Of a DNA stretch of 64,000 bases, positions 26,555 to 49,609 are shown one piece after another. Below the pieces are notes generated by a model. The model was not told the origin of the DNA. It made no database searches and saw only the letters and a program-made list of their open reading frames with translations. Each line of letters begins with the position of its first letter. Within the stretch, counting starts at the first letter, position 1. The stretch is from NCBI GenBank assembly GCA_001896555.1, contig MPOS01000011.1:30223-94222 (forward strand), given 5' to 3'. The DNA comes from Candidatus Phosphitivorax anaerolimi. GTDB lineage: Bacteria; Desulfobacterota; Desulfomonilia; UBA1062. Both the position numbers and the translations under genes were made by a program.

Positions 26555-26813
26555 GATCGGAATGCCGGACCGCGAACACAGCAGAACCGTTCATTTCTGC
26601 AAGACTCGATTGCTTGGGCTCCCTCTCCCCTTGCAGGAGATGGATAGGGTGAGGTGGAAATAAAGTCACAGCTTCCACGCCTTCTCTCTGCCCCTCTGGG
26701 TACCCGCTTCAGCGGTTCGTGCGGAGGGGGCCCTGAGGGATTGCATGGTGGAGAATGCAACAGCCCCGAGTTTTGCGGAAGAAGGTGAGAGAACACACAA
26801 GAGCCGCGCACAA

Positions 26814-27164
26814 ATGCCGAAAACTCACGTCAGGCGCACCAGAGACCTCAGGAAGCGCTCCACCGACACAGAGCAGCCTCTCCGGCGGCACCTGCTGGCA
26901 AGGCAGATGTCAGGCCAGAAATTCAGTCGCCGGCAGACAGCCGGCGATTATATTGTCGATTTTCTCTGCTGTGAGAAAAGGGTGATCATCGAGCTCTATG
27001 GAGGCCAGCACGGCATTCACCAGGAAAAGGACATTATGCACGATTCATGGCTCAAAAAGCAGGGCCTTCGAGCTCTCCGGTTCAGGAACAACGAGGTTTT
27101 TTCCAATACTGACGGGGCACTGCAGACTGTCCCGGATGCATGCTCAGGGGGGGACGGGGCTTGA
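26814..27164 (+). CDS. DUF559 (Vsr-like endonuclease fold) protein.
   Basis: Segment LRKRSTDTEQPLRRHLLARQMSGQKFSRRQTAGDYIVDFLCCEKRVIIELYGGQH...LRFRNNEV matches the DUF559 consensus. I trimmed to the MPKTH start. Confidence 0.7.
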   Translation: MPKTHVRRTRDLRKRSTDTEQPLRRHLLARQMSGQKFSRRQTAGDYIVDFLCCEKRVIIELYGGQHGIHQEKDIMHDSWLKKQGLRALRFRNNEVFSNTDGALQTVPDACSGGDGA

Positions 27165-27298
27165 TCTTCAATTTCAACTCCCCCCACCCTGTCCCGCCTC
27201 CACTCAAGGAGGAGGGCGCGTGCACCCGTCGCGCCCAGCAGGGCTTCGCAGTGGGAGAGGGTCGGCGCTCCATTCCCCGGCATGCCGCTCAACTGCTG

Positions 27299-29037: not shown

Positions 29038-31851
29038 TCAGCTCAAAGAGAGGAGATACGATCTCAGGTTCGCCTTTTCTTTCTTCAGCCCCAGCTTGTC
29101 TCTGATGTTGTTCCGGTGGAACTCTACGGCACGCTTGGAAATGTTGAGCAACTCCGAGATTTCCTTGGTCGACTTGCCCTCGCGCACCAGGTTCGCCACC
29201 TGGATCTCGGTGGGGGTGAGATTCAGATATTGGGCGGAGAGCTTCTGGAGGAAGGGAGAGATGATGTCGCCCAGGCTCGATTCCAGGAGCTGCACGTAGG
29301 CGGCCTGCCTGTCGTCGAGCGAGCATGCCTTGAGCTTTTCCAGATAGGGCAGGGCCAGCTCCTTGATGTTGGACAGGACCTTTTCCTCGAGCTCCTTCTT
29401 GTCCTGCTCGCCGCGCTTGAGCAGCACCTTGAGCGCGGTGTTGGCCTCCTCGAGATTCAGCGACTTGAGCTGAAGCTCCTCTTCCTTGCGCATGAGCGTC
29501 TGCTCGGCCAGCTTGCGCTCCTCGATCTCCCGCTTCAGCCTGATGTTCGCCCGGACGAGCTCCTCGGTCCGCTCCTCGACCCGTTGCTCGAGGCTCTCGT
29601 AGGCCTTCTGCAGCTTCTGCTCGGTGAGCTTGCGCTCGGTGATGTCCACGAACGAGCACAGCAGGCAGATGGGCCTGCCGTTCTCGTCCTTCACCATGCT
29701 CGCGGAGAGCTGCACCGCGATGGGCGTCCTGTTTTTCTTGACCGCGATGATCTCCCCGAACCAGGTGCCCTTTGCGAGCACGGTCTGGAGAATAGCGTCC
29801 GCGTCTTCCCGGGACTGGGCGAAGGTGAGCGCCGACTTTCCCAGGACCTCGGACGGATCCTTGCCGCCCCACATGCGGAGAAAGGCATCGTTGACATAGG
29901 TGATGTTGCCCTGAAGATCGCCGATAGCGATGCCGTTGATGGATGACGAGATGGCAAAGTCCTTGACCCTGAGCTCCTCTTCCATCTTCTTGCGCTCGGT
30001 GATGTCCACGAACGAGTCCATCACGCAGATGGGCTCGCCCCTGTCGTTGTACACCATGCTTGCCGAGAGGTGGACCGTGATCGGCGAGCCGTCGCTCCGG
30101 AAGCCGGACACCTCCCCTGACCAGCTTCCCTTCTCCACCACGGCCTGGAATATCTCCAGGGCTTCTTCTTCCGACTGCGCCAGATCGAGAACCGACCTGC
30201 CCAGTACCTCGGAGGGGTCTTCAGCACCCCACATGGCCAGCGCCGCGTCGTTGACGTAAGTGATCTTCCCTTCCAGATCACAGAAACCGATGCCGTCGAT
30301 GGACGAGGCGATGGCGTTTTCCCTGACCCTGAGCTCCTCTTCCATCTTCTTGCGCTCGGTGATGTCAACGAACGAGTCCATCATGCAGATGGGCTCGCCT
30401 TTGTCGTTTTTCACCAGGCTTGCCGAGAGCAGGACCGTAATCGGCGAGCCGTCCTTGCGGAAGCCGGACACCTCGCCCGTCCAGCTTCCCTTTTCCACGA
30501 TGGCCTGGAAGATCTCCAGGGCCTCCTGCTCGGATTGCGCGAGGTCCAGCGCAGACCTTCCCAGCACATCGGAGAGATCGCTGTCTCCCCACATCTTCAG
30601 GGCCGCATCGTTCACATAGGTGATTCTGCCTTCCAGATCGGAAATTCCGATGCCGTTGATGGACGAGGCGATGGCGTATTCTTTTATCTGTAGATCCTCC
30701 TCCATCTTCTTGCGCTCAGTGATGTCCACGAACGAGTCCATCATGCAGATGGGCTCGCCTTTGTCGTTTTTCACCAGGCTTGCCGAGAGCAGGACTGTAA
30801 TCGGCGAGCCGTCCTTGCGGAAGCCGGACACCTCGCCGGTCCACCCGCCTTTCTCCAGAACGGCCTGATAGATTTCTATGGCCTCTTCCTCCGACTGGGC
30901 TAGACTGAGCGCCGAGGTGCCGATGACCTCGGACGCATCCGGGGCCCCCCACATCTTCAGGGCCGCGTCGTTGACGTAGATAATGTTGCCCTCCAGGTCC
31001 GATATGCCGATGCCGTTGATGGACGACGCTAGGGCATTGTTCCTGATGCGCAGCTCCTCCTCCATCTTCTTGCGGTCAGTGATGTCCACGAACGAGCACA
31101 TGATGCAGATGGGCTCGCCTTTGTCGTTTTTCACCAGGCTTGCCGAGATGAGCACGGTGAAAGGATCACCGACTTTCCTCTTTGCGTTGACCTCTCCCTC
31201 CCACCTGCCGCTGGTGCGGATGGTGTCGATAATATCGAGGATCTCCTCCTGTGACTGGGCGAAAATCATCGCAGGTTTTCCCAGGACCTCATCGGGCTTT
31301 CCGGCACCCCACATCTTCAGGGCCGAATCGTTTGCATAGGTGATGACGCCGTCGAGGTCGGCGATGACGATGCCGTTGATGGACGAGGCCAGGGCGCTTT
31401 CCTTGACCCGCATCTCTTCTTCCATTTTCTTGCGGTCGGTGATGTCCACGAATGAGCACATCATGCACACGGGCTCGTTCGATTCATTGCGGACCAGGCT
31501 GGCCGAGAGCAGGACGGTGACCGGCGAGCCGTTTTTCCGCCGGCCGTTGATCTCTCCCGTCCAGTCGCCTTTGCACAGCACGGTCTCCATGATCTCCAGG
31601 GCCTCCTGCTCGGACTCGGCGAACACGGTCACCGGCTTGCCGATGATCTCCGCTGGGTCGGTCCCGCCCCACATCATGACGGCTGCCTGGTTCACATAGG
31701 TGATGGTGCCCTGCAGGTCGCCGATCGCAATGCCGTTGATCGACGATGCGATGGCGAACTCCTTGATCCGCAGCTCTTCCTGGATATACCTGAGCTCGTC
31801 GATCTTGTCTTTCAGGGGCTTGACTTCCTCGCTCATGCGGCTCGGCGGCAT
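29038..31851 (-). CDS. LuxR-family transcriptional regulator with eight tandem PAS domains and a C-terminal GerE-type HTH.
   Basis: C-terminal TPTEIQVANLVREGKSTKEISELLNISKRAVEFHRNNIR. Eight repeats of about 120 aa, each ending DITDRKKMEEELR/DITERKKMEE. Confidence 0.85.
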   Translation of the reverse strand: MPPSRMSEEVKPLKDKIDELRYIQEELRIKEFAIASSINGIAIGDLQGTITYVNQAAVMMWGGTDPAEIIGKPVTVFAESEQEALEIMETVLCKGDWTGEINGRRKNGSPVTVLLSASLVRNESNEPVCMMCSFVDITDRKKMEEEMRVKESALASSINGIVIADLDGVITYANDSALKMWGAGKPDEVLGKPAMIFAQSQEEILDIIDTIRTSGRWEGEVNAKRKVGDPFTVLISASLVKNDKGEPICIMCSFVDITDRKKMEEELRIRNNALASSINGIGISDLEGNIIYVNDAALKMWGAPDASEVIGTSALSLAQSEEEAIEIYQAVLEKGGWTGEVSGFRKDGSPITVLLSASLVKNDKGEPICMMDSFVDITERKKMEEDLQIKEYAIASSINGIGISDLEGRITYVNDAALKMWGDSDLSDVLGRSALDLAQSEQEALEIFQAIVEKGSWTGEVSGFRKDGSPITVLLSASLVKNDKGEPICMMDSFVDITERKKMEEELRVRENAIASSIDGIGFCDLEGKITYVNDAALAMWGAEDPSEVLGRSVLDLAQSEEEALEIFQAVVEKGSWSGEVSGFRSDGSPITVHLSASMVYNDRGEPICVMDSFVDITERKKMEEELRVKDFAISSSINGIAIGDLQGNITYVNDAFLRMWGGKDPSEVLGKSALTFAQSREDADAILQTVLAKGTWFGEIIAVKKNRTPIAVQLSASMVKDENGRPICLLCSFVDITERKLTEQKLQKAYESLEQRVEERTEELVRANIRLKREIEERKLAEQTLMRKEEELQLKSLNLEEANTALKVLLKRGEQDKKELEEKVLSNIKELALPYLEKLKACSLDDRQAAYVQLLESSLGDIISPFLQKLSAQYLNLTPTEIQVANLVREGKSTKEISELLNISKRAVEFHRNNIRDKLGLKKEKANLRSYLLSLS
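29560..31720. repeat. Tandem array of about 360-bp direct repeats (about 6-7 units) encoding the PAS modules of the regulator. Units 30360-30720 and 30720-31080 are near-identical.
   Basis: Out-of-frame ORFs recur at 30260, 30620, 30980 and 31340 with near-identical translations. The protein segment GEVSGFRKDGSPITVLLSASLVKNDKGEPICMMDSFVDITERKKMEE is repeated. Confidence 0.8.
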
Positions 31852-31978: not shown

Positions 31979-32959
31979 TCAGAACGGGATCACCACGCCG
32001 ATGGAAAAGGTTGATATGATCTCCTGCTCGAACACACCAATCTTGACGGGATCTTCAGGGTTATACGAGGACATGTCGTCGCCCTCGTAATAGTCGGGGT
32101 CTCTGGTTTTGTACGACACCTCCAGCACGGGGTCGAAGTTGTCCAGATCATACATGGCCGCGCCGGCCTCCGCCACGAGTCTGATATTGTTCTTGAACGG
32201 GATATAGATCCCGGCAAAGACCTGCAGGAGCTGCCCGAACACGGTTTCGGAATCATCGAGCCTGATCCGGTATTCAGACCCCTGGTAAGACTGCTCTCTG
32301 ATCGCGTCGCTTTCCACCTCGCGCGTCGCCATGCAGAAACCCAGGCCCCCTCCGATATAGGGGTTGATCCTTTTTTTGTCTCCTCCGTGGTGCTCGTAGA
32401 CGATGTTGAATGAAAGGGGCACGATGTAGAGCGTGGTGTCGAGGTCGACTCTCCGGAGCAGCTCGGCGCTGGTGATGATGGCCTCTCCTTCACCGCGGTA
32501 GCTGCTGCCCAGGTTTTTGTCGTTGATGTCCTCTGCGGTGACGCCCGGCTCGTTGGAGCCGGGGAAGGTCTCTTCCGCCTCCATGATGATCGACTCCCGG
32601 TTGCTGCCCGTGTCCCACTCCCCCCTGAGCATGATCACCTCGAGCGAGGCGAGGAACGAGATCTTTTCCTTGATCTTTTTTTTCGCACCCAGCGAGACGG
32701 ACAGTCCGTAGTCGAGGAAATCACGGAAGTCGCTGTCGTACACCGCGAATGCGCCGCCGGATTTTATCGAGTAGGAGAAGGTCTGGTCGCGGGGAAACTG
32801 CTGTTTTCTGGGCGCCGACACCAGGATCTCTTCGTCCTGGGTGAGGGCTGCCTTCATGGCGGGAGACTCGGGATTTGCCGTGCGTGAGAGGTTTTCGGAA
32901 CTCCAGACAACGAGCGGAAACGCCAGGATAAAAACAGTGTATGCAGCTATACGGCTCAT
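31979..32959 (-). CDS. Hypothetical outer-membrane beta-barrel protein.
   Basis: Signal peptide MSRIAAYTVFILAFPLVVWSS. C-terminal FSIGVVIPF ending in Phe. Alternating hydrophobic pattern. Confidence 0.5.
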   Translation of the reverse strand: MSRIAAYTVFILAFPLVVWSSENLSRTANPESPAMKAALTQDEEILVSAPRKQQFPRDQTFSYSIKSGGAFAVYDSDFRDFLDYGLSVSLGAKKKIKEKISFLASLEVIMLRGEWDTGSNRESIIMEAEETFPGSNEPGVTAEDINDKNLGSSYRGEGEAIITSAELLRRVDLDTTLYIVPLSFNIVYEHHGGDKKRINPYIGGGLGFCMATREVESDAIREQSYQGSEYRIRLDDSETVFGQLLQVFAGIYIPFKNNIRLVAEAGAAMYDLDNFDPVLEVSYKTRDPDYYEGDDMSSYNPEDPVKIGVFEQEIISTFSIGVVIPF

Positions 32960-33382
32960 TATAACGATCCTTAAGGCCCTTTCTTTCATATGTGCTGCCT
33001 GGAAAAAACATCCTCACCCCCGGCTGCCGCAAGGGGATAACATGTGTTCGATTCACGAGTCATGCAAGAATTATTCCCTGCCATCTATTTCGCAGGAAGC
33101 GGATAAGACTTGACATTTTATCCATGAATCTTTCATGATCCGCAGCCTGAAAGAAAATAATTTCTCCTAAAGGGCAAAACCTTGCATATTCACAAGTGAC
33201 TGCCCTTGTGATCATATCTGTTGCAATGGCGGGGCAAAGATGATTAAATAAAACAGCCATAATGAGGTCCGCTCCCGTGATTGCTGCGTTTGTCTGTTAT
33301 GCAATGGATACTGATCCAGGTCTCATCTGCAGTCATCTCTGCCGAGCAGGACGGCGAGAACCTGTGTAGGAGGTTAGAACAT

Positions 33383-34354
33383 ATGAAGGGACACCGGATA
33401 TTCCCTCTTGTCGCGGCAATCTTCTTTCTGGCATGTGCGTGCGTTTCGTGTGAAAGCGGTTCAAGCAGCAGCGACCCCGGAGAGGTCCTGCCTCCGAGAC
33501 CATGGGATAACCCTATGCCCGATCCTTCAGACGATACGACATCCTCTAGCATGGAATTGATAGGGTCTTGGGTTGGGTATTTTCTTGCCGGTGACGACGA
33601 TGTATTTGACGATGTATTTAATTATAGCAACGAAAACGATAATCCCCTGGAATTTGATTTTGATGATGATGATCTTTTTGCAATAGGGATCATTACCCGG
33701 GAAAAAGAAGCAAGATTTATTGGAGATACGTCGCAGTTCGTATGTCCTGAAGGTTCATTGGGAGCAAGTAATATTGCTGGCATTAGAACTATATTCGGAG
33801 GATACTTTGACTATTATACGTGGAACACTCAGGGGCTCGAACCATACACCGCCAATGTGGAGCCTATCTCCATCTATGGAAATGCACTCTTTTCCATATA
33901 CTTTCTTGACGGCTTCTATTGGTATACTGACACACCGGAAGCCGACAGGGATTTCTGGCAATTCCAGTTCTTCAACTACACCACCACCGGGATATCCGCG
34001 GATATTGAAAAGATCGCGGGCCAGTGGAAGATCAGCGATGCGTTCTGGAAGGGCAACACCCTGACTTTCACCATAGAGCCCAACGAAGACCGTAGGAGCG
34101 CTACCATAACCGGCACCGACACTCATACCCCTCAAAATACCTTCGAGGGAACCATCATCGAGATACACTATGACGACACCGACTTGTACGATGTCTCGCT
34201 CAAGCTCAACGAGGAATTCGACCTGGAAGGCCTGGCGACCTATGTGTCCAGCTACGATAACCAGGGTATACACGCCGAGTCTTCCCTCGCCATCGGCGTA
34301 TCCGACGGGCAACGCATGGTCACCGGCCTGGCGGCGCCGGTGCCCGAGGAATGA
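33383..34354 (+). CDS. Hypothetical lipoprotein with an acidic low-complexity segment.
   Basis: RBS TAGGAGG 8 nt upstream. Signal peptide MKGHRIFPLVAAIFFLACACVSC. Acidic run DDDVFDDVFNYSNENDNPLEFDFDDDDLF. Confidence 0.55.
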   Translation: MKGHRIFPLVAAIFFLACACVSCESGSSSSDPGEVLPPRPWDNPMPDPSDDTTSSSMELIGSWVGYFLAGDDDVFDDVFNYSNENDNPLEFDFDDDDLFAIGIITREKEARFIGDTSQFVCPEGSLGASNIAGIRTIFGGYFDYYTWNTQGLEPYTANVEPISIYGNALFSIYFLDGFYWYTDTPEADRDFWQFQFFNYTTTGISADIEKIAGQWKISDAFWKGNTLTFTIEPNEDRRSATITGTDTHTPQNTFEGTIIEIHYDDTDLYDVSLKLNEEFDLEGLATYVSSYDNQGIHAESSLAIGVSDGQRMVTGLAAPVPEE

Positions 34355-34826: not shown

Positions 34827-34899
34827 GAATGGGTAGCCCATGGAGACCAGAGAAAGAGGCGTGCATCCAGAGCATATCTTATTCAATTCGGAGAGATCA

Positions 34900-35478
34900 A
34901 TGCGAGGTCGGATGTTTGTAGCGATTCTTCTTGCCCTGTGTCTGTTCTGTTCCCCCGCCCACGCCTGGATGTGGGAAGTCGGCGACGAGGTTCTGGCCGA
35001 GATAACCGGCGAAGGCTATTCCAGTTTTACCCTCGAAAACGAAGTCGCCCGTGCATACTTCAACATCACCACCACCACCTACACCGAGATCGATTCCCTG
35101 AAAATGGGTTACTACGACAACGGCACCGGATACGGGTGGGACGAAAACTGGGAAGGCGTATCCCTGGGTTCTGCCTCCGAGAGTCTCGTGTGCAAGGGCG
35201 TGTACATCGAGGCGGGTTTTTCCAACATGACAGACCCTGCCACCCGGCAACTCAATTTCGTCAGGGTGGGCACACCGTCCATGACAGGCCCCATCAGCGC
35301 AAACTTTATTTCGTTCAGCGGCCGCATCGAGAACCCCACGGACGGCGTTCTCGTGGACGGCAGCCGGCTGAATCTCGGCCAGAGAACGATCTACTGCAAC
35401 AATTCGGAGTTTTCCGTAACCCTGGACAGGACCTCCGGCTGGTGGTTCCACTGGGACAATGCAACGATTACCCCGTGA
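34900..35478 (+). CDS. Secreted hypothetical protein (193 aa) carrying the cluster-specific mature-N-terminal motif.
   Basis: Signal peptide MRGRMFVAILLALCLFCSPAHA, then WMWEVGDEVLAEITGEGYS. RBS GGAGAG. Confidence 0.6.
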   Translation: MRGRMFVAILLALCLFCSPAHAWMWEVGDEVLAEITGEGYSSFTLENEVARAYFNITTTTYTEIDSLKMGYYDNGTGYGWDENWEGVSLGSASESLVCKGVYIEAGFSNMTDPATRQLNFVRVGTPSMTGPISANFISFSGRIENPTDGVLVDGSRLNLGQRTIYCNNSEFSVTLDRTSGWWFHWDNATITP

Positions 35479-35737
35479 TATGAGCAGAGAGGAAAACTGA
35501 CAGGGAGTATGCATTCGGTTGTTTTGAATTGAAGTAGGGAGATCGAGTTCAAGGAGCATCTCCTTAGCCCCTGTGGTTTTGGTTATACAAAGTACCGTGA
35601 AAAGGGGGTGATGTGCTGGCAAACGTGAAACAGGAGAAATCGAAAAGCGTTACACCGTTAGGCATGAGTAGTTGGGTAAAAAACTAAAAAGCAAGTAACA
35701 GGCACCACAAAAAATAAATTTTTGGAGGCATTAAGTT

Positions 35738-36784
35738 ATGAAGAGAGTATTGACGTTTTTGGCTATCATGTTGCTGCCATTGTCCGTAATGGCAATGACA
35801 CCGGTTTCCGACCAGACCCTCTCCGATGTTACCGGCCAGGCCGGAGTCAACATCAATGCTGACCTTATGATGGACATCGCCATCGGCACCATGGCATGGG
35901 GCGATGCCGACGGTATCACTGCAAGCGGCAGCTGGCCTACCTGGGGCACCACTGCTGACGGCGGCTACGTGGGAGTCACCGGGTTCGACATTGACGGCCT
36001 GAGAATCAAGGCCCGCGAAACCGACACCTATCACGAATATGCGGCACCTGCACAGCTGAAGCCCATCACCATCGACGTTGCCACCGATCCAAACATCTAC
36101 GACGGAGCGACCTTTGTGCGGTTCGGCCTCGGCTCCCTCCAGATCACCATGGGCGCCCTCGACTTCGACGTGAGGCTCGGGACTGACGCGGCAACCCTCG
36201 CGGCTTCCGGCAACCTGCTCGGTGTTGTGAGCATCGGCGCCATGGGCATCTACATCGATCCCAAGAGCTATGTTGACATCTTCTCCGACGGCACCTGCGG
36301 CGTGAACATAGCCATGGACATCGAGATCGATCAGTTCAACATCGGCTACGTGTCCTGGGGCGACACCGACGGCGTGACCAACACAGGCATGGGCGCGATG
36401 CCCTGGATGGCTGCGGCTAGCGCCGGTTATGTCGGACTTGCCAACCTCGAGATCGGCGGCCCGATCACCGTCAGCGGTCAGCTGGCAATCGATGTCAACA
36501 CCGCCTATGCCGGCATCTACTCCCACGGCATAGTCGGGACCGATGCGGGCGCAGCCCCTGTGAGCGTTGTTCACATCCAGTTCGGCTCCGACGTCTACTC
36601 GGATCCCACTCTGGGCGCTGCTGACCTCTTCTCCGTACTCGTCGGCCCGATCACTGCCGAGGTGAAACTCGACGGCGTGGCAGCCCTGGACGGCGCCAAT
36701 GCCGGCACGCTGGGCGACATCTACATCAGCAGCTTCGGCCTCGACATCTATGGCGGCAGCTGGGTGGACATCTGGGCCCACTAA
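35738..36784 (+). CDS. Secreted protein, paralog A (348 aa). It carries the N-terminal LSDVTGQAGV motif, internally duplicated WGDxDG modules and the C-terminal SWVDIWAH.
   Basis: Signal peptide MKRVLTFLAIMLLPLSVMA, mature N-terminus MTPVSDQTLSDVTGQAGVNIN. The duplication WGDADGIT...GGYVGVTGFDIDG versus WGDTDGVT...AGYVGLANLEIGG. Confidence 0.7.
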   Translation: MKRVLTFLAIMLLPLSVMAMTPVSDQTLSDVTGQAGVNINADLMMDIAIGTMAWGDADGITASGSWPTWGTTADGGYVGVTGFDIDGLRIKARETDTYHEYAAPAQLKPITIDVATDPNIYDGATFVRFGLGSLQITMGALDFDVRLGTDAATLAASGNLLGVVSIGAMGIYIDPKSYVDIFSDGTCGVNIAMDIEIDQFNIGYVSWGDTDGVTNTGMGAMPWMAAASAGYVGLANLEIGGPITVSGQLAIDVNTAYAGIYSHGIVGTDAGAAPVSVVHIQFGSDVYSDPTLGAADLFSVLVGPITAEVKLDGVAALDGANAGTLGDIYISSFGLDIYGGSWVDIWAH

Positions 36785-36811
36785 TCAACTGCTGACTCAT
36801 GTGTAATCGAG

Positions 36812-36839
36812 AAAGGAGGGTTGGCTGCAACCCTCCTTT
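36812..36839 (+). terminator. Perfect 12-bp-stem hairpin AAAGGAGGGTTG-GCTG-CAACCCTCCTTT between paralogs A and B. Candidate partial terminator or mRNA stabiliser.
   Basis: Read from the sequence, 28 bp after the paralog A stop. There is no strong U-tract. Confidence 0.45.
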
Positions 36840-36898
36840 CTCTTCCAGGGAACATCATGCAATGCGGTGACAGGTGAGAATCGGAGGAAGAGAATTTT

Positions 36899-37924
36899 AT
36901 GAAGATAATGAAAAGCGCATCACTGGCCGTGCTGATCGTTGCGTTCCCGCTCTCCATGATGGCCATGACGCCGGTGCGGGATCACGATCTCTCCCAGGTG
37001 ATCGGCCAGGCCGGTGTGAGCATCAATACCGACATCATGATGAACATCGCCATCGACACCCTGGCATGGGGTGATTACGACGGCATTTTCGAAGGCGGCC
37101 ATCCCTCCTGGGGCACCACCGCTGACGGCGGCTATGTGGGACTGGCCGGGTTCGACGTCATCGGGCTCAGGATCAAGGCCCGCGAAAACGACACCTTCGG
37201 CGGGTATTCCGCTGCAGCGGACTTCAAGCCGATCACCATCGACGTCGCCTCCGACCCGACCTACAGCCTCTACAGCGGGTTCACCTTCGTGCGGTTCGGC
37301 CTCGGCTCCCTCCAGATCACCGTGGACCAGATGGACTTCGCGGTCTTTCTTGCAGCCCCCGGCGCCCCGGGCCAGGTGCTCGGCACGGTAAATCTCGGCG
37401 CGCTCGCCATGTACGTCAACCCGTGGAGCTACGTAGACATCTATAACAGCAGGCCGGGCAACCAGTGCGGGGTTTTCGTGACCATGAGCGTCGTGATCGA
37501 CCAGCTCGATATCGGCTATCTGTCGTGGGGCGACATTGACGGCGTGGCCAATGAAGGCATCGGCGCGATGAGCTGGATGTCAGATGGCGCGCAGGGAGCC
37601 GGCTATGTCGGGCTCTCCAACCTGCGAGTGTGGGGGCCCATCATCATGCAGGGAACGGTCGCCATCGATGTGACGACCTCGTATGAAGGCATCTACGCCC
37701 ACGGCTCGTTTGGGGACCCGGGCTGGGCCCCTGTGAGCGTTGTGCACATCGGGTTTCCCCAGGTATTCAGCCTGGATGTGGCGGGACCCATCACCGCCGA
37801 TGTGAAGCTGGACAGCTTCGCTTCCCTGAACAGTCCTGATGCCGGCACACTGGGCAACATCTATATCTCGGGACTCGGCATCGATATCCTGAACCGCAGC
37901 TGGGTGGACATCTGGGCGCACTGA
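36899..37924 (+). CDS. Secreted protein, paralog B (341 aa). A tandem duplicate of paralog A.
   Basis: Signal peptide, then MTPVRDHDLSQVIGQAGVSIN. Same WGDxDG modules and the identical C-terminus SWVDIWAH. Confidence 0.7.
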   Translation: MKIMKSASLAVLIVAFPLSMMAMTPVRDHDLSQVIGQAGVSINTDIMMNIAIDTLAWGDYDGIFEGGHPSWGTTADGGYVGLAGFDVIGLRIKARENDTFGGYSAAADFKPITIDVASDPTYSLYSGFTFVRFGLGSLQITVDQMDFAVFLAAPGAPGQVLGTVNLGALAMYVNPWSYVDIYNSRPGNQCGVFVTMSVVIDQLDIGYLSWGDIDGVANEGIGAMSWMSDGAQGAGYVGLSNLRVWGPIIMQGTVAIDVTTSYEGIYAHGSFGDPGWAPVSVVHIGFPQVFSLDVAGPITADVKLDSFASLNSPDAGTLGNIYISGLGIDILNRSWVDIWAH

Positions 37925-38114
37925 GCCCTCTCCGAGAGTCAAGCCCCGAGGCGCGGCACTGGTATAGATTCTTGAGGATGAAGATCAGGCTCTTGAGGCA
38001 GGGAAATTTTTCTTGCCTGTCTCAAGATAATGAGTGAATAGATCGAAGAGACAGTATGTGCAGAAAACAAGTGCAGGTTCGTATGGAGCGGCGGGAATGA
38101 AAGGAGATAAAGGT

Positions 38115-38999
38115 ATGAGCCCTGGCAGGAAAGGATACCGTCTTTTTTCCCGGCATTTCGCACTGTTTGCTCTTTTCGTTTTCTTTCTCCCCATTTCCGC
38201 TCCGGCTCAGATGAGCCGGCTGAGCGATGACGAGCTCTCCGAGGTGAGCGCCCGCTCGGGCATCACCTATGTGATCGGCGATTCACAGCTGCGCGTCTAC
38301 GCCGACTCATACCGGGTCTCCGACACAGATCACACCCCGCGCCACTGGATCGAGCTCAACGATTTCACCGTCGATGACGGCCAGGGCGGCTACTTCTCCA
38401 TGAACACCCCCGCTGACTACGACGACTTCAACACCCTCGACATCGGCACCACCGGCGAGGGGGATACGTATATTTTCATGAATCTTTCCACTCACGTAGA
38501 GCCGAGGACCTACACTGTCGGGAACTTCGTCTTCTGCGACCAGGACCTGGGCGGAATCAGGCTGGAAAACCTCAGGAAGGGGACTTCGGACACGTTTATC
38601 ATAGGCCCCCACGGCGATGGGATGTCCGGCATCGACATCGAGTATCAGACAGAGATCACCATCGACTCTCTGCAGTACACCTACAATACCCAGCCCGAAT
38701 CGCTCAACCTCACCGGCATCCGATTTGCCGGCAGCGCGCTCGGTGCGCCGGAAGATCCGTCATCCTGGATCTTTTCGGGAAAGTTCAAGTTCGGCGATCT
38801 TGCGAACAACAGGCCTGTGACCATTGATGTCGGTACCTATGATGACGGTGCTGTCACGTCGACCTCGGTGTTCTACAACGCACCCATGTCCGGCAGCATC
38901 CGGGTGGAAAACGTGGATTTCGGAGGGAACCAGTTCGGCCCCTGCGCCATCGACGGCATAACCGTTCATCATCTCGGCATCCAGATACCCGGTAATTGA
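38115..38999 (+). CDS. Secreted hypothetical protein with a related mature-N-terminal motif (protein C).
   Basis: Signal peptide MSPGRKGYRLFSRHFALFALFVFFLPISAPA, then QMSRLSDDELSEVSARSGITYVIGD. RBS AAAGGAGATAAAGG. The stop overlaps the next gene. Confidence 0.6.
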   Translation: MSPGRKGYRLFSRHFALFALFVFFLPISAPAQMSRLSDDELSEVSARSGITYVIGDSQLRVYADSYRVSDTDHTPRHWIELNDFTVDDGQGGYFSMNTPADYDDFNTLDIGTTGEGDTYIFMNLSTHVEPRTYTVGNFVFCDQDLGGIRLENLRKGTSDTFIIGPHGDGMSGIDIEYQTEITIDSLQYTYNTQPESLNLTGIRFAGSALGAPEDPSSWIFSGKFKFGDLANNRPVTIDVGTYDDGAVTSTSVFYNAPMSGSIRVENVDFGGNQFGPCAIDGITVHHLGIQIPGN

Positions 39000-39808
39000 C
39001 AGGGGCGGGCAAATCTGGGAGAATCCGGACTATGGAGGTTATCGCGGGCTTCCTCATCGTTCTGGCTATACTTACCACGCTCCATCCCGTCAGTGACGTA
39101 TCGGAAAGCGAACTGACGTTGTACCCGGAAGTGCCTGGAATTCAGCATGTTTTGAGATATGAGGTCAAGCCGTACTCTGTCATGAAGGACGAGAACATCG
39201 TCAAGCAGCAGTTCGACTACAGTTGCGGTTCTGCGGCGCTGGCAACCCTCCTGAACTACTACCTGGGCGAGAACTTCACCGAGGAGCAGGTGATCCAGGG
39301 GCTGATGGAGTATGGCGACATCAAGCAGCTGGAGGAGAGGCGCGCGTTCTCTCTGCTGGATATGAAGCGGTTTGTTACGGTTCTCGGCTACCAGGGCACG
39401 GGCTACACTGCGGAGCTCGAAGATCTGAAGAAGCTCGACAAGCCATGCATCGTTCCGATCGAGTTTTTCGGGTACAGGCACTTCGTGGTTTACCGTGGCA
39501 TATATGGCGATCATGTGTTCTTCGCCGACCCCTTCATGGGCAACATCAGCTTCACCTTATCGGAATTTGAAGAAATGTGGCACAGAAATATCGTGTTTAT
39601 CGTGACCGACGGCGGAGTCACCATGGATGCGCTTCTCCTCAAGGAGGAGGATTTGCGGCTCGTGGAGATCATCAGGACGAGCGATGCTCTTCCCGAGCAT
39701 GCACGTTCGACCATTCTGATCGAGCAGCAGAAGTTCATGGAATCCATCGGGAGGATCGACGAGGACGCGAACAGGAGATACCAGTTCAAGAGCATCAATG
39801 TCTATTGA
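38996..39808 (+). CDS. Membrane-anchored peptidase C39-family cysteine protease, standalone and predicted periplasm-facing.
   Basis: One N-terminal TM helix (EVIAGFLIVLAILTTL). Catalytic Cys in QQFDYSCGSAALATLLNYYLG. His and Asp in GYRHFVVYRGIYGDHVFFADPFMG. The TTG start overlaps the upstream TGA; an alternative ATG at 39032 has RBS GGGAGA. Confidence 0.7.
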   Translation: MTGAGKSGRIRTMEVIAGFLIVLAILTTLHPVSDVSESELTLYPEVPGIQHVLRYEVKPYSVMKDENIVKQQFDYSCGSAALATLLNYYLGENFTEEQVIQGLMEYGDIKQLEERRAFSLLDMKRFVTVLGYQGTGYTAELEDLKKLDKPCIVPIEFFGYRHFVVYRGIYGDHVFFADPFMGNISFTLSEFEEMWHRNIVFIVTDGGVTMDALLLKEEDLRLVEIIRTSDALPEHARSTILIEQQKFMESIGRIDEDANRRYQFKSINVY

Positions 39809-39841: not shown

Positions 39842-40915
39842 TTGACAGGTTACAGCAAGAGGAGACCATACGTGAAGAGACTCGCTGTTTTGATTGCTGT
39901 GTTTTTTTGCTGCCTTGTTTGTGCTGCCGACGGGAGCGCCCAGGAGCAGGAAACAGGAAGAGAGGAGCTTCTGAACCGTATCGAGGAGCTGGAGAAACGG
40001 ATCAATGAATTGACGGAAGAGAGCCGCGCCAGAAGAAGACTGGAGATCACCGAGCAGGAGAAGCAGGAGAAGGAGAAGGAAGTGCTCGAAGCAGTGGGCA
40101 GAGAATACTCTCTCGAACCAAAGCGCACGCTCGGGCTCGACTATACGCTGTCGTACAAGTATACCCCAAGCGAGAGGATTCTCAATCAGCTCCTGATCGA
40201 ACGCCAGATAGATCACGAGATCAAGCACACCATCACTACATCGTACAGCATCCTCGACAATCTGACCTTCAGCGCGGGCATTCCTTTCGTATACCGGTAC
40301 AACGAAGTGGGCACGGACAAAGAGCTGGATGAAACCGACATCGGTGATATTACCCTGGGATTTTTGATCCAGCCCATCAAGTCGAAGGCCGGCGATGTGC
40401 GGACAATTCTGGGCCTGAGCGCCTCATTGCCCACGGGCAGGAGCCCCTTCAAGATCAACCCCGAGACAGAGCTCTCGACCGGCAACGGTGTGTATGACTT
40501 TTCGCTCACCGCAAGCTTCAGCAAGCAGATCGATCCTGTTGTGGCCTTCTGGAACCTCGGCTACACCTACCGCATGGATGCCACTGGTCTGGATTACAGA
40601 GTTATGGAGCAACTAATATTGGAAGAGGTGGAGACAGGGAACTCCATCTCCGCGGGGGCAGGGATCGGCTATGCACTTTCTTACAAAGTATCGGTGAACT
40701 CGTCTTTCAGCTACACCTATCATTTCAGCTCTGCATATAAGTATACGGGTGCAGCTCAGGACGTTGAGTCCGGAGACAGATCTGAGGCCACGTTCGGCGT
40801 GGGCTTGGGCTGGAAAGCAACAAACAAGACCACCCTTTCTTTCAGTCTCGGGTACAGTCTCACGGGGTCGGGCTTCACGTTTACGGTCAGGGCCCCGTTC
40901 AGCTTTGTCCTATGA
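39842..40915 (+). CDS. Outer-membrane beta-barrel protein with an N-terminal coiled-coil segment.
   Basis: Signal peptide LAVLIAVFFCCLVCAADG. Coiled coil EELLNRIEELEKRINELTEESRARRRLEITEQEKQEKEKE. Beta-strand-rich remainder ending FSFVL. Confidence 0.55.
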   Translation: MTGYSKRRPYVKRLAVLIAVFFCCLVCAADGSAQEQETGREELLNRIEELEKRINELTEESRARRRLEITEQEKQEKEKEVLEAVGREYSLEPKRTLGLDYTLSYKYTPSERILNQLLIERQIDHEIKHTITTSYSILDNLTFSAGIPFVYRYNEVGTDKELDETDIGDITLGFLIQPIKSKAGDVRTILGLSASLPTGRSPFKINPETELSTGNGVYDFSLTASFSKQIDPVVAFWNLGYTYRMDATGLDYRVMEQLILEEVETGNSISAGAGIGYALSYKVSVNSSFSYTYHFSSAYKYTGAAQDVESGDRSEATFGVGLGWKATNKTTLSFSLGYSLTGSGFTFTVRAPFSFVL

Positions 40916-40929
40916 GGGGAGAGTGTATT

Positions 40930-42615
40930 ATGCTATTGAGGAGGTTTCCGGCTATTTGCCTGCTGCTGATCGCGGGTTTGATCAGCCCCATGCCGGCGCG
41001 TGCCGGGCTTTTCGAGCAGCTCGCGGTCTGCCCCGCGGCCTCGTCCCTGGGCAGCGCGGTGACCGCCTATCCCGAGGGGTGCGGCGGGCTGGCCGTGCAT
41101 TTCAACCCGGCCCATCTGGCGACCTATGAGGCCAGCCGCTTCGACAATGCGCTGATATTCACCATAAACAAGCGGGAGGCAACGTACACCCAGGGGATCG
41201 ACCCGGAAACCGGCGAGCTCTGGGCGCCATTCGGCGGCTGGTTCAACGACGGCAAAGACCCTCTGGACGGTGCACATGCCGAGCAGCAGAGCGGGTATAT
41301 GGTGATCCCCATCGTCGACTACGAGATCCCCTACCTGGCAGGTGCGGGCATGGGGATCATCTACAAGCCGCCCGAGCCCGAGTCGCGGCTCACCTTCGGA
41401 TTCGGACAGTATGCCCCCTTTGCGGTGGGGCTGAAGAATCACAGCGGAGACCCGTTCAGCTTCATGGGCAGGAAGGCCTTCTTCCTCCGCATGGTCCTGG
41501 CGGCCCCGGCGGTTGCATATAAGCTCACCGACACCATATCCATAGGCGCCTCGGTAGGGATCGGGGTCACCCTGTTCAGCTTCCAGACGAACATGAGAAC
41601 GCCCAACACCATGGTCGCACTGACCGGCGCCCTGGGTGAGGCGACCGAAGGTCTGGAGATCCCGGTGATATCAGAGCTGACTTTCCCGCCGCCCTGGTTC
41701 GGCGGCGGAATGCACCCCTATGAGAAATCGGGCGAGCTTGAGCTCCTGGTGGAGGACTACTTCACCACCTCGTACAACCTGGGCTTTCTGTGGGAGCCCA
41801 CGCCCTGGTTTGCCTTCGGGGCCTGTTACCAGAGCGAGTCCGAGACCACTATGGAAGGCGACTACAAGTTTTCCTACGAACGTAGATTTCAGAACACGGT
41901 CGCCTGGCTGGGGCGTTCTCCCCTGACGATCATAACAGCCGCCATGTTCGACCTGCCCTACCAGGCAGTGCCCCATCAGAAGGGCACCGCCACCGTCAGC
42001 ATGACCTGGCCCGCCCGCCTTCAGCTCGGCGTCAAACTGAAGCCCATAAAACAGCTCGTGCTCACCTGCGACGCCCACTGGACCGACTGGGAGGCATGGC
42101 CTACTCTCGAGATACAGTTCGACCAGAAGATTCAGCTTCTGAGATTCGCCCGGATGCTCGGGTATATGAACAGTCCCAAGGCCATGGTTTTGAATCTGGG
42201 TTTTGAGAACACCTGGCATTTCAGCTACGGAATCGAGATACGCCCCATCAAGCGGCTCGCCCTGCGCTTCGGGTATGAGCCCAGACCCACTTCCGTGCAG
42301 GACGACCTCTTCGGCCCTGTGCCCATGTCGGATATGGATATCTATTCTGTGGGGATCGGGTTTACCATCGAGGACCATCCCAAGCCCAAGCCCGGCAACT
42401 TCCATGAACTGCTCAAACAGATTCAGCATCCGACCGCAATCGACCTCAATGTGACGCTTGTGCAGCTCAAAGACAAGACGGTGGGGTTCAACGAAAGCAC
42501 GAATATGAACTCGATAGATTTCACCGACATTGTCTACAACCCGTATGCGGGCCTTGAGTACGAGCAGGAGATGTCCGTATGGGTGATATCGCTGAATCAG
42601 GTGTTCAAGTGGTGA
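40930..42615 (+). CDS. FadL/TodX-family outer-membrane hydrophobic-compound channel.
   Basis: Signal peptide MLLRRFPAICLLLIAGLISPMPARA. FadL-like N-terminus GLFEQLAVCPAASSLGSAVTAYPEGCGGLAVHFNPAHLA containing the NPA motif. RBS GAGGGGAGAG. Confidence 0.65.
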   Translation: MLLRRFPAICLLLIAGLISPMPARAGLFEQLAVCPAASSLGSAVTAYPEGCGGLAVHFNPAHLATYEASRFDNALIFTINKREATYTQGIDPETGELWAPFGGWFNDGKDPLDGAHAEQQSGYMVIPIVDYEIPYLAGAGMGIIYKPPEPESRLTFGFGQYAPFAVGLKNHSGDPFSFMGRKAFFLRMVLAAPAVAYKLTDTISIGASVGIGVTLFSFQTNMRTPNTMVALTGALGEATEGLEIPVISELTFPPPWFGGGMHPYEKSGELELLVEDYFTTSYNLGFLWEPTPWFAFGACYQSESETTMEGDYKFSYERRFQNTVAWLGRSPLTIITAAMFDLPYQAVPHQKGTATVSMTWPARLQLGVKLKPIKQLVLTCDAHWTDWEAWPTLEIQFDQKIQLLRFARMLGYMNSPKAMVLNLGFENTWHFSYGIEIRPIKRLALRFGYEPRPTSVQDDLFGPVPMSDMDIYSVGIGFTIEDHPKPKPGNFHELLKQIQHPTAIDLNVTLVQLKDKTVGFNESTNMNSIDFTDIVYNPYAGLEYEQEMSVWVISLNQVFKW

Positions 42616-49511: not shown

Positions 49512-49609
49512 TTCCCGGGTTTCAGGAAAATGTGTTTCAGGAGAGCGAGTTTCTTCTTATCCTGCGGGAATGGTTCTGACATGCCGGCGGCAGCGATTTT
49601 CGGTATGAA

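What the first reader, a model, noticed from the sequence alone, without database searches (positions are those of the whole stretch)
35738..37924. Tandem paralogs with internally duplicated WGDxDG modules, an identical C-terminus, and a strong hairpin between them
Proteins A and B each contain two copies of a module WGD(A/T/I/Y)DG(I/V)T...GYVG(L/V).(G/N).(D/E)I.G, so a duplicated gene with a duplicated domain. Both end in SWVDIWAH. The Asp/Gly-rich WGDxDG motifs look like calcium-binding turns of a beta-helix or beta-roll. A perfect 12-bp-stem hairpin (36812-36839) separates the genes. That is the arrangement seen for highly expressed major structural subunits (pilin-like), where a partial terminator raises the stoichiometry of the first gene. 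Both the calcium-binding and the major-subunit readings are inference.
Basis: partly seen in the sequence, partly recalled or inferred. Interest (0 to 1): 0.6.

Follow-up and report, generated by a model that had tools for sequence, protein, structure and literature searches.

The report
Fil-type surface fibre subunit genes
The two tandem genes encode paralogous, internally duplicated subunits of a poorly studied "Fil" surface-fibre system in an uncultured sulfate-reducer relative; they are exported by machinery related to the Pseudomonas amyloid (Fap) secretion system, and a terminator hairpin follows the first gene.

Summary
A (35738-36784) and B (36899-37924) are 57% identical secreted proteins. 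Each is a tandem duplication of a ~160-aa module (z 15 and 8.4). Both end in SWVDIWAH. The hairpin between them has a perfect 15-bp stem, not 12.

- **What they are:** Pfam DUF6160 proteins, the family of Acinetobacter FilA. They head a conserved cassette: U212, A, B, C, then a FilB-like C39 peptidase, a FapF-like FilC channel, a FadL-like FilD and a PD40 protein.
- **Calcium beta-roll or solenoid reading:** not supported. AlphaFold models (pLDDT 87 and 86) have 14-27-residue antiparallel strands. No solved structure is close, and there is no RTX motif.
- **Major-subunit-plus-attenuator reading:** supported by comparison only. A GC-rich hairpin with a T-rich tail follows the first subunit gene in most related loci, with different sequences, and also follows A. 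baumannii filA.
- **Conservation pattern:** the termini are near-invariant, the middle is variable, and a recombination mosaic spans the A-B junction.
- **New lead:** behind the Sec signal, U212, A, B, C and Acinetobacter FilA share a 15-residue motif. It is in register with double-glycine leaders and may be the FilB recognition or cleavage element.

Verdict: a new variant of a known but uncharacterised system, of moderate interest.

The parts
35738..36784 (+). Gene A: secreted two-module DUF6160 (FilA-like) subunit, 348 aa. Sec signal is aa 1-19. The leader-like 15-mer MTPVSDQTLSDVTGQ is aa 20-34 (35795-35839). WGDxDG turns lie at 35897-35914 and 36356-36373. The C-terminal SWVDIWAH is at 36758-36781.
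   Evidence: PF19657 47.8 bits, cut-off 27; FilA HMM 9e-12, below cut-off
36809..36850 (+). Intrinsic-terminator-like hairpin after gene A. It has a perfect 15-bp stem (36809-36823 / 36828-36842) and loop GCTG. The GC core GGAGGGTTG/CAACCCTCC is followed by TTTCTCTT (6 T of 8) and preceded by the A-tract GAGAAA.
   Evidence: The same position holds a hairpin with a different sequence in related loci. A canonical terminator follows A. baumannii filA. The consensus scanner did not list it.
36899..37924 (+). Gene B: paralogous two-module DUF6160 subunit, 341 aa. Signal is aa 1-22 and the leader-like motif is MTPVRDHDLSQVIGQ. It has a strong SD (GGAGGA) upstream and a weak promoter-like match at 36867-36895.
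   Evidence: The exact sequence is seen on 74 contigs.
37991..38027 (+). Second hairpin, after gene B (dG -22.7), without a T-rich tail.
38034..38999 (+). Gene C: third DUF6160 protein with a different body. Its probable start is the ATG at 38097. The leader-like motif is MSRLSDDELSEVSAR and the conserved C-terminus is ...GITVHHLGIQIPGN. Its stop overlaps the start of the peptidase ORF.
   Evidence: (PF19657 49.8 bits)
38996..39808 (+). FilB/FapD-like stand-alone periplasmic C39 cysteine peptidase. Its probable start is at 39032. Cys (YSCGSAAL), His (RHFVVYRG) and Asp (ADP) are all present.
   Evidence: Peptidase_C39 1.8e-17; FilB 3e-61, FapD 3e-33, both below curated cut-offs; LahT protease 6mpz, 3e-8; 47% identity to the A. 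baumannii fil locus
39842..40915 (+). FilC/FapF-like outer-membrane channel. The N-terminal heptad-like, Glu/Lys-rich segment is read by eye as a coiled coil. It is followed by a COG4313-type barrel.
   Evidence: FilC 2.5e-44, FapF 7e-20; FapF PDB 5o68, 6e-14
40912..42615 (+). FilD-like FadL/TodX-family outer-membrane protein. Its start overlaps the stop of FilC.
   Evidence: Toluene_X 3.7e-36; FilD 5e-83; 30.5% identity to A. baumannii FilD, 3e-73
42930..44441 (+). PD40/TolB-like beta-propeller protein (503 aa). It is conserved at the end of the cassette and has no counterpart in Acinetobacter.
34840..35478 (+). U212: small secreted protein (probable start at 34900). It carries the same leader-like motif (WMWEVGDEVLAEITGE) and the conserved C-terminus WxNATITP. 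It lies directly upstream of A in all cassette loci.
   Evidence: It has no Pfam or NCBIfam family, and hhalign to the A family is not significant.
33281..34354 (+). LP357: probable lipoprotein (probable start at 33383, MKGHRIFPLVAAIFFLACACVSC), conserved upstream in the cassette.
31979..32989 (-). R336: conserved divergent gene of unknown family next to the cassette.
29038..31851 (-). One-component regulator with six PAS domains and a LuxR/GerE HTH. It is syntenic with the cassette and is a candidate regulator.
   Evidence: GerE regulators also flank the distant locus L005.

Best explanation
A and B are paralogous structural subunits of a Fil-type cell-surface fibre. This is the DUF6160/FilA family, first named in Acinetobacter. 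The host is an uncultured Desulfomonilia-like bacterium.

Proposed route, step by step:
1. Each protein is exported by Sec. Shown: a typical signal peptide.
2. A 15-residue motif then lies at the new N-terminus. It has double-glycine-leader spacing (M-15, V/I-12, S/T-11, D/E-8, L-7, V-4, G-2, Q-1). The periplasmic C39 peptidase FilB recognises it and probably removes it. This step is inferred.
3. The subunit crosses the outer membrane through the FapF-like FilC channel, with the FadL-like FilD as partner. This is inferred from homology and conserved gene order.
4. Subunits assemble outside the cell. The near-invariant N-terminal segment and the C-terminal strand ending in Ala-His would form the contacts, and the variable loops would be exposed. 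This is inferred from the conservation pattern.

Each subunit is a covalent tandem of two ~160-aa all-beta modules. Every module has a long beta-hairpin tipped by the invariant WGDxDG...GYVG turn. Relatives carry 2, 3 or 4 modules.

The hairpin after gene A is an intrinsic terminator or attenuator. It lets A, the fast-evolving and presumably major subunit, be made in excess over B, C and the machinery.
For: Family and machinery:
- A, B and C pass the Pfam DUF6160 threshold. Acinetobacter FilA is DUF6160 and is named 'putative pilus system protein FilA'.
- The three genes after C match NCBIfam FilB, FilC and FilD (3e-61, 2.5e-44, 5e-83) as well as FapD and FapF.
- FilC matches the solved FapF structure (6e-14). 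FilB matches a double-glycine protease with Cys, His and Asp aligned.
- The FilB-FilC-FilD order is the same in A. baumannii, at 47%, 30% and 30.5% identity.
- FilA was recovered from fibre preparations of Acinetobacter sp. Tol 5, and Fil proteins rise in A. baumannii pellicles and biofilms (PMC3498257, PMC3203104, PMC8792954).

Cassette: the order R336, LP357, U212, A, (B), C, FilB, FilC, FilD, P503 is kept in about 20 related MAG loci.

Conservation:
- In 78 homologues, residues 31-40 score 0.98 and residues 341-348 score 0.99. Loop regions fall to 0.25-0.37 and collect the insertions.
- Between close relatives A is the most diverged cassette protein. Against L004 it is 69% identical, compared with 80-99% for five of the other eight and 72-73% for LP357, C and FilC.
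- A 300-nt tract across the A end, the hairpin and the B start is 98-100% identical to L004. The flanks are 25-80% identical.

Module number: relatives carry 2-4 modules.

Hairpin:
- The stem dG is -27.
- Hairpins of different sequence with T-rich tails sit 10-35 nt after the first subunit gene in most loci. This includes loci without B.
- 7 of 13 consensus pairs show compensatory changes.
- A canonical terminator follows A. baumannii filA.

Leader-like motif:
- Its logo comes from 112 cluster representatives.
- The motif is present in U212, A, B, C and A. baumannii FilA.
- A PSSM of double-glycine leaders picks the same register as the top position in all five.
Against: - There is no experimental evidence for this clade. 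All carriers are uncultured MAGs.
- Even in Acinetobacter the Fil fibre is only 'deduced', and its assembly has not been studied.
- A and B score far below the curated FilA cut-off (45 and 38.5 bits against 220). Profile comparison with A. baumannii FilA is significant only over residues 11-64 (E 1.4e-4). tblastn finds nothing.
- FilE and FilF are absent.
- Position -1 of the leader-like motif is an invariant Gln, not Gly, Ala or Ser. A Sec signal precedes the motif and no ABC transporter is present. Cleavage is therefore unproven.
- The hairpin lacks an uninterrupted U-tract, and the consensus scanner did not list it. A weak promoter-like site lies between it and B.
- Model coordinates could not be inspected, so how the modules pack and polymerise is unknown.
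Confidence: 0.62

Rival explanations
1. A and B leave the cell by the same FapD/FapF-like route but do not form a pilus. Instead they act as an amphipathic surface coat or as a capture protein for hydrophobic substrates. The COG4313-type (FilC) and FadL-type (FilD) channels would then take up hydrophobic compounds.
For: - FilC belongs to the Phenol_MetA_deg/COG4313 family and FilD to FadL/TodX. Both are families of hydrophobic-substrate uptake channels (PMC6173800).
- Mature A and B are acidic (pI 4.05) yet hydrophobic (GRAVY +0.3).
- Fil fimbriae in Acinetobacter Tol 5 appeared on triacylglycerol-grown cells. FilF rose in air-liquid pellicles together with a lipase and a fatty-acid transporter (PMC3498257, PMC3203104).
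- An MMPL/LolA-like/DUF1302 cluster is syntenic with the cassette.
Against: - FapF, the solved relative of FilC, exports polypeptides (PMC6173800).
- The flagellin- or pilin-like pattern (invariant termini, variable middle, orphan extra copies, 2-4 modules) suits a polymer better than a monomeric coat.
- FilA was recovered from fibre preparations.
Confidence: 0.2
2. A and B are integral outer-membrane beta-barrel proteins (porin-like). The neighbouring genes would be unrelated outer-membrane functions.
For: - Both have a signal peptide and long amphipathic strands.
Against: - The C-terminus ends in His, not the aromatic beta-signal (established knowledge).
- GRAVY is positive.
- The genes are tightly and widely syntenic with a FapD/FapF-type export set.
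- Module number varies from 2 to 4.
Confidence: 0.07
3. A and B are calcium-binding beta-helix or beta-roll (RTX-like) adhesins in which the WGDxDG motifs are calcium turns.
For: - The Asp/Gly-rich WGDxDG turns are invariant.
- The proteins are very acidic.
- DxDG resembles part of the DxDxDG calcium loop (own knowledge).
Against: - There is no GGxGxDxUx motif and no complete DxDxDG motif, and no Pfam calcium-binding family at E <= 1.
- There are only two motifs per protein, ~150 residues apart.
Confidence: 0.03
4. A and B are functional amyloid subunits like FapC. They would be exported unfolded and would polymerise as cross-beta fibrils.
For: FapD-like and FapF-like genes lie in the same operon. 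The proteins carry an internal repeat.
Against: - The repeats are ~160-aa modules predicted with high confidence as a defined fold (pLDDT 86-87). They are not short Gln/Asn-rich amyloid repeats.
- There is no match to any Fap subunit model in NCBIfam or Pfam.
Confidence: 0.05

Closest known systems
Acinetobacter Fil fimbriae / 'type III pilus' locus filABCDEF (NCBIfam NF050077-NF050080; Pfam DUF6160)
   Same: - The subunit is a DUF6160 protein with the same signal peptide, a ...L..(V/A)TGQ(A/D)G(V/I)NI motif and a C-terminal small residue plus His.
- The subunit gene is followed by a terminator hairpin.
- The C39 peptidase, FapF-like channel and FadL-like protein follow in the same order.
   Different: - The body of the subunit is not detectably similar beyond the first ~55-130 residues.
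- Here the subunit is a two-module tandem with WGDxDG turns. There are three or four leader-bearing proteins (U212, A, B, C) instead of one FilA.
- FilE and FilF are absent. A lipoprotein, U212 and a PD40 propeller take their place.
- All scores are below NCBI's curated cut-offs.
- The host is an anaerobic Desulfomonilia-like MAG.
Pseudomonas Fap functional-amyloid secretion (FapD C39 peptidase plus FapF trimeric channel)
   Same: Both have a stand-alone periplasmic C39 peptidase next to a FapF-type barrel. The N-terminal segment of that barrel looks like a coiled coil (read by eye). Cargo is Sec-dependent and encoded upstream. The review PMC6173800 already notes fapD-fapF pairs in five other phyla.
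   Different: The cargo is a folded two-module beta protein, not FapB/FapC amyloid repeats. An extra FadL-like protein is present. There are no FapA or FapE homologues.
Double-glycine leader peptides cut by C39 peptidases (colicin V, class II bacteriocins, LahT)
   Same: - The segment is 15 residues long and starts with Met.
- Hydrophobic residues lie at -4, -7, -12 and -15, an acidic residue at -8, Ser/Thr at -11 and Gly at -2.
- Compare the ColV leader MRTLTLNELDSVSGG (recalled from memory) with MTPVSDSDLSDVTGQ.
- A catalytically intact C39 peptidase lies in the operon.
   Different: - Position -1 is an invariant Gln (Glu, Ala or Arg in U212 and C).
- The motif lies behind a Sec signal peptide.
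- The peptidase is not fused to an ABC transporter.
- The cargo is a 34-kDa protein.
- No HMM for leader families matches significantly (best is Lactococcin at E 0.086 for C).
Major-subunit genes of chaperone-usher fimbrial operons (papA, fimA) followed by a stem-loop
   Same: A strong hairpin directly after the first, most variable subunit gene would give excess subunit over machinery. The comparison rests on established knowledge of those operons.
   Different: There is no PapD-like chaperone or usher family in the cassette. The export route is different.

Membership tests
Pfam DUF6160 (PF19657) | HMM score above the gathering threshold (27 bits) | tested here: met
   A scores 47.8, B 45.4 and C 49.8 bits. 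The model covers the signal peptide, the leader-like motif and the first strand.
Fil putative pilus system (NCBIfam FilA-FilD) | Subunit reaches the FilA curated cut-off (220 bits) | tested here: not met
   A scores 45 bits (9e-12) and B 38.5 bits. hhalign to A. baumannii FilA gives E 1.4e-4 over aa 11-64 only. tblastn finds nothing. They are homologous at the N-terminus but not equivalogs.
Fil putative pilus system (NCBIfam FilA-FilD) | FilB (C39), FilC and FilD homologues directly downstream in that order | tested here: met
   E-values are 3e-61, 2.5e-44 and 5e-83, all below the curated 'exception' cut-offs. The genes are collinear with the A. baumannii locus at 47%, 30% and 30.5% identity.
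Fil putative pilus system (NCBIfam FilA-FilD) | FilE and FilF present | tested here: not met
   tblastn of A. baumannii FilE and FilF against the window finds no match.
Fil putative pilus system (NCBIfam FilA-FilD) | Subunit forms extracellular fibres | not testable with these tools
   There is only indirect literature evidence, and only for Acinetobacter (PMC3498257).
Fap functional amyloid system | FapF-type channel and FapD-type C39 peptidase | tested here: met
   FapF PDB 5o68 matches at 6e-14. The NCBIfam FapF model gives 7e-20 and FapD 3e-33, both below the equivalog cut-offs.
Fap functional amyloid system | FapB/FapC-type amyloid repeat subunits | tested here: not met
   A and B give no NCBIfam or Pfam match other than DUF6160/FilA at E <= 1. 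The models are confidently folded.
RTX / beta-roll calcium-binding repeats | Tandem GGxGxDxUx nonapeptides forming a parallel beta-roll | tested here: not met
   The regular expression finds none. There is no Pfam hit. The models have 14-27-residue antiparallel strands.
Double-glycine (C39-processed) leader | Amphipathic spacing with hydrophobic residues at -4, -7, -12, -15 and an acidic residue at -8 | tested here: met
   The logo of 112 representatives shows the spacing. A PSSM picks this register as the best position in A, B, C, U212 and A. baumannii FilA, at 5.2-13.9 bits against a background of -13.4 +/- 6.2. The PSSM was built from leaders recalled from memory.
Double-glycine (C39-processed) leader | Gly-Gly, Gly-Ala or Gly-Ser at -2/-1 | tested here: not met
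   Gly-Gln is found in 110 of 112 sequences in that register. An Ala/Ser-Gly pair lies two residues further on.
Double-glycine (C39-processed) leader | Leader is actually cleaved by the peptidase | not testable with these tools
   The Edman data for Tol 5 FilA (Hori et al. 2011) are not in the library.
Chaperone-usher pili | PapD-like chaperone and usher genes | tested here: not met
   No cassette protein matches such Pfam or NCBIfam families.
Outer-membrane beta-barrel proteins | Closed barrel and a C-terminal aromatic beta-signal | tested here: not met

The most novel reading that the evidence does not exclude
DUF6160/Fil subunits would define a widespread, structurally new class of surface fibre exported in two steps. 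A Sec signal is removed first. A bacteriocin-type double-glycine-like propeptide then lies at the new N-terminus and is recognised and cut by a periplasmic FapD/FilB-type C39 peptidase. This licenses passage through the FapF-type channel. The invariant C-terminal His and the N-terminal segment would then form the subunit-subunit joint. If so, the substrate-recognition rule would be established for FilB-type periplasmic C39 peptidases, and it would suggest where to look for the still-unknown FapD substrate. It would also suggest that a cytoplasmic bacteriocin leader, relic initiator Met included, was captured behind a Sec signal.
Probability: 0.3. Interest if true: 0.65.

Novelty: new variant of a known kind. 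Interest (0 to 1): 0.45.

Why it matters
Fil systems are named in annotation pipelines and turn up in Acinetobacter biofilm proteomes, yet they have no structure and no assembly mechanism. Only one paper in the library even mentions DUF6160.

This locus and its relatives supply three things:
- A comparative picture of a conserved ten-gene cassette.
- A subunit with a confidently predicted fold that has no close solved relative.
- A concrete, testable hypothesis for what periplasmic FapD/FilB-type C39 peptidases recognise.

The last point bears on an open question in the Fap amyloid field, where the FapD substrate is unknown (PMC6173800).

In the host clade the subunit shows features of an exposed surface antigen. 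These are a variable middle, recombination mosaics and orphan extra copies. They are relevant to phage and predator interactions in anaerobic digesters and sediments.

Tried and rejected
- **AlphaFold database search:** the afdb50 library was not available.
- **Profile against PDB sequences:** the A family gave no hit at E <= 1. FilD gave no PDB sequence hit.
- **Rfam and tRNA scans of the window:** nothing found.
- **Consensus terminator scan:** it did not list the hairpin. I read the T-rich tail directly from the sequence.
- **Leader-family HMMs on the 30-aa N-termini:** only DUF6160/FilA matched, plus a non-significant Lactococcin hit for C (E 0.086).
- **U212 against the A-family profile:** not significant (probability 1.9%). 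U212 is linked only by its leader-like motif and by synteny.
- **C against A by BLASTP:** not significant.
- **Recent gene conversion between A and B:** rejected. DNA identity is ~75% with no long identical tracts. A neighbour-joining tree does suggest lineage-specific duplication or homogenisation in other lineages.
- **Cluster counts as a measure of A hypervariability:** rejected as unreliable. I used per-gene identities between the same locus pairs instead.
- **Hori et al. 2011 (Edman sequence of FilA):** not held in the library.
- **Literature:** nothing was found on Fil assembly, on FilC/FilD function or on DUF6160.
Full report

Yes. The window holds two + strand ORFs, A (35738-36784, 348 aa) and B (36899-37924, 341 aa). 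They are 57% identical (E 1e-129).

Each has two WGDxDG...GYVG motifs. These four are the only WGDxDG matches in the six-frame translation of all 64 kb. WVDIWAH occurs only at the two C-termini.

In A, residues ~35-185 align end to end with ~187-348 (score 137 against 39 +/- 6.5 for shuffles, z 15). For B, z is 8.4. The mature protein is therefore a tandem of two ~160-aa modules. Module 1 ends in KSYVDIFS, the counterpart of SWVDIWAH.

The hairpin has 15 perfect pairs (36809-36823 with 36828-36842) and the loop GCTG. Its dG is about -27 kcal/mol.

**2. What are the genes?**

A, B and a third ORF, C (38034-38999), pass the Pfam DUF6160 threshold. They give weak, sub-threshold matches to NCBIfam 'putative pilus system protein FilA'.

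The next three genes are as follows.
- *Peptidase:* a stand-alone C39 cysteine peptidase matching FilB at 3e-61 and FapD at 3e-33.
- *Channel:* a COG4313-type barrel matching FilC at 2.5e-44 and FapF at 7e-20, with an N-terminal segment that looks like a coiled coil (read by eye).
- *FadL-like protein:* a FadL/TodX-type protein matching FilD at 5e-83.

All of these scores are below NCBI's curated cut-offs. The genes are family-level homologues, not equivalogs.

By sequence, FilC matches the solved FapF channel (5o68, 6e-14). FilB matches a double-glycine protease domain (6mpz, 3e-8) with the catalytic Cys, His and Asp aligned.

I fetched an annotated A. baumannii fil locus (L034). Its order is FilA, FilB, FilC, FilD. 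The last three are collinear with the window genes at 47%, 30% and 30.5% identity. FilE and FilF have no counterpart here.

Acinetobacter FilA is itself DUF6160. The literature on it is thin:
- FilA was identified by Edman degradation in fibre preparations of Acinetobacter sp. Tol 5 grown on triacylglycerol (PMC3498257).
- Fil proteins rise in A. baumannii pellicles and biofilms (PMC3203104, PMC8792954).
- I found nothing on assembly.
- A Fap review already notes co-located fapD-fapF pairs in five other phyla and states that the FapD substrate is unknown (PMC6173800).

**3. Relatives and context**

- *Close homologues:* A has 343 hits in the 5.8-billion-protein set, all from metagenomes or MAGs labelled Deltaproteobacteria or Desulfomonilia.
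- *Family size:* a profile search of 1.84 billion cluster representatives finds 490 clusters (139 at E <= 1e-30). Lengths run from 320 to 770 aa, with 2, 3 or 4 modules.
- *Host range:* a scan of GTDB species genomes returned 28 loci, all in uncultured MAGs. One is labelled archaeal and is probably mis-binned. Some genomes carry three or four loci.
- *Cassette:* mapping the window proteins onto 33 loci shows a conserved order: R336 (-), LP357, U212, A, (B), C, FilB, FilC, FilD, P503.
- *Copy number:* several lineages have A but no B. 'Orphan' subunit genes occur away from the machinery.
- *Tree:* window B groups with the B copies of L001 and L009. In other lineages A and B pair within the lineage. 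Duplication is therefore recurrent, or the copies are being homogenised.

**4. Structure**

AlphaFold2 with a 78-sequence alignment gives confident models for A (pLDDT 87.4, pTM 0.76) and B (86.1, 0.75). Both are all-beta, with strands of 14-27 residues. The WGDxDG...GYVG segment lies at the turn of the long first hairpin of each module.

Calcium binding at the invariant Asp/Gly turn remains untested. I could not inspect coordinates, so the packing of the two modules is unknown.

**5. Conservation pattern**

Across 78 homologues, the segment VTGQAGVNIN (residues 31-40) scores 0.98 and the last eight residues score 0.99. Loop regions at 61-70, 151-160 and 281-300 fall to 0.25-0.37 and collect the insertions.

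The terminal dipeptide is Ala-His in 120 of 146 cluster representatives. A. baumannii FilA ends in ITISGH in 116 of 120 clusters. The other cassette proteins end differently (C in ...IPGN, U212 in ...NATITP). SWVDIW is therefore the last strand of the module, and the terminal small residue plus His is a subunit-specific feature kept across phyla.

Between close relatives A is the most diverged cassette protein. Against L004 it is 69% identical, compared with 80% for B, 82% for FilB, 89% for FilD and 99% for P503 (C, FilC and LP357 are 72-73%). A 300-nt tract (36757-37056) spans the end of A, the hairpin and the start of B. It is 98-100% identical to L004 while the flanks are 25-80%. The exact B protein occurs on 74 contigs and exact A on 4.

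This is the pattern of flagellins and pilins: conserved joints, exposed variable loops and recombination.

**6. The hairpin**

In most related loci a strong GC-rich hairpin (-18 to -36 kcal/mol) lies 10-35 nt after the stop of the first subunit gene. This includes loci where the next gene is C rather than B. The stems differ in sequence and the tails are T-rich. In an RNAalifold alignment, 7 of 13 pairs show compensatory changes.

In the window the GC core GGAGGGTTG/CAACCCTCC is followed by TTTCTCTT and preceded by GAGAAA. That is a terminator with an A-tract pairing to an interrupted U-tract. A. baumannii filA is followed by a textbook terminator.

A and B have their own strong Shine-Dalgarno sites and long flanking spacers, whereas C-FilB and FilC-FilD overlap. 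The attenuator reading is well supported by comparison but not by expression data.

**7. A leader-like motif**

In 112 representatives the signal-peptidase site (Ala at -16) is followed by this sequence: M(-15) T P V/I(-12) S/T(-11) D S D/E(-8) L(-7) S x V(-4) T G(-2) Q(-1), then A G V S/N I N.

This is in register with the classical double-glycine leader LSxxELxxIxGG. Compare the ColV leader MRTLTLNELDSVSGG, which I recalled from memory. The exception is Gln at -1.

U212, B, C and A. baumannii FilA carry the same motif. It picks this register as the best position in all five proteins, at 5.2-13.9 bits against a background of -13.4 +/- 6.2. These proteins are homologous, so they are not independent tests, and leader HMMs do not match significantly.

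With a catalytically intact periplasmic C39 peptidase in the operon, I infer that this motif is the FilB recognition element and probably a propeptide. The cut site, after GQ or after the following A/S-G, cannot be assigned.

**8. Verdict**

The genes are paralogous, internally duplicated subunits of a Fil-type system, which is FapD/FapF-dependent. The system is carried by an uncultured Desulfomonilia-like bacterium, and a terminator-like hairpin follows the first subunit gene.

The calcium beta-roll part does not.

It is a new variant of a known but essentially uncharacterised kind. The subunit fold has no close solved relative, and the leader-like motif gives a testable handle on FapD/FilB function.

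Noticed in passing
window 36757-37056, against L004 11010-11310: A ~300-nt tract covers the 3' end of A, the hairpin and the 5' end of B. It is 98-100% identical to a relative whose A and B bodies are otherwise only 25-80% identical in DNA. This is a recombination mosaic with breakpoints in the conserved gene ends.
   Followed up: partly
window ~35600-35615 and 35690-35737: The block AAAGGGGGTGATG lies ~130 nt upstream of the A start codon and is conserved in seven loci. The A-rich 5' UTR is conserved as well. The block could be a promoter element or the start of a tiny leader ORF (MCWQT* here). It is unexplained.
   Followed up: partly
window 34840-35478 (U212) and 38034-38999 (C): Two further secreted proteins of unrelated body carry the same leader-like 15-mer behind their signal peptides. 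Each has its own conserved C-terminus (WxNATITP and GITVHHLGIQIPGN). They may be minor, tip or nucleator components.
   Followed up: partly
window 37991-38027: A second strong hairpin (dG -22.7) follows gene B but lacks a T-rich tail. A similar element follows B in L001, L004 and L021.
   Followed up: partly
window 23341-28792: An MMPL transporter, a LolA-like/DUF1329 protein and a DUF1302 outer-membrane protein form a cluster. It is syntenic with the fibre cassette in L001-L004 and may be a lipid or hydrophobic-compound export or uptake set.
   Followed up: no
window 29038-31851 (-): A 936-aa one-component regulator with six PAS domains and a LuxR/GerE HTH is conserved next to the cassette. 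GerE-type regulators also flank the distant locus L005.
   Followed up: no
L012, L017, L018, L020, L022, L024, L029: Related genomes carry extra 'orphan' subunit genes away from any FilB/C/D machinery, up to four loci in one MAG. Several have their own downstream terminator hairpin.
   Followed up: partly
L013 (JAKPZB010000043.1): A contig labelled 'Methanobacteriota archaeon' carries the whole bacterial cassette with outer-membrane proteins. It is almost certainly mis-binned.
   Followed up: no
window 35684-36781 (-): A 365-aa antisense ORF overlaps almost all of gene A. It has no support as a gene and is probably a by-product of the GC3-rich coding strand (GC3 0.78).
   Followed up: no
window 48393-50590 and L003 15816-17891: GDP-mannose 4,6-dehydratase and GDP-fucose synthase genes lie a few kb downstream. 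In L003, glycosyltransferase and epimerase genes directly follow FilD. Glycosylation of the fibre is conceivable but untested.
   Followed up: no
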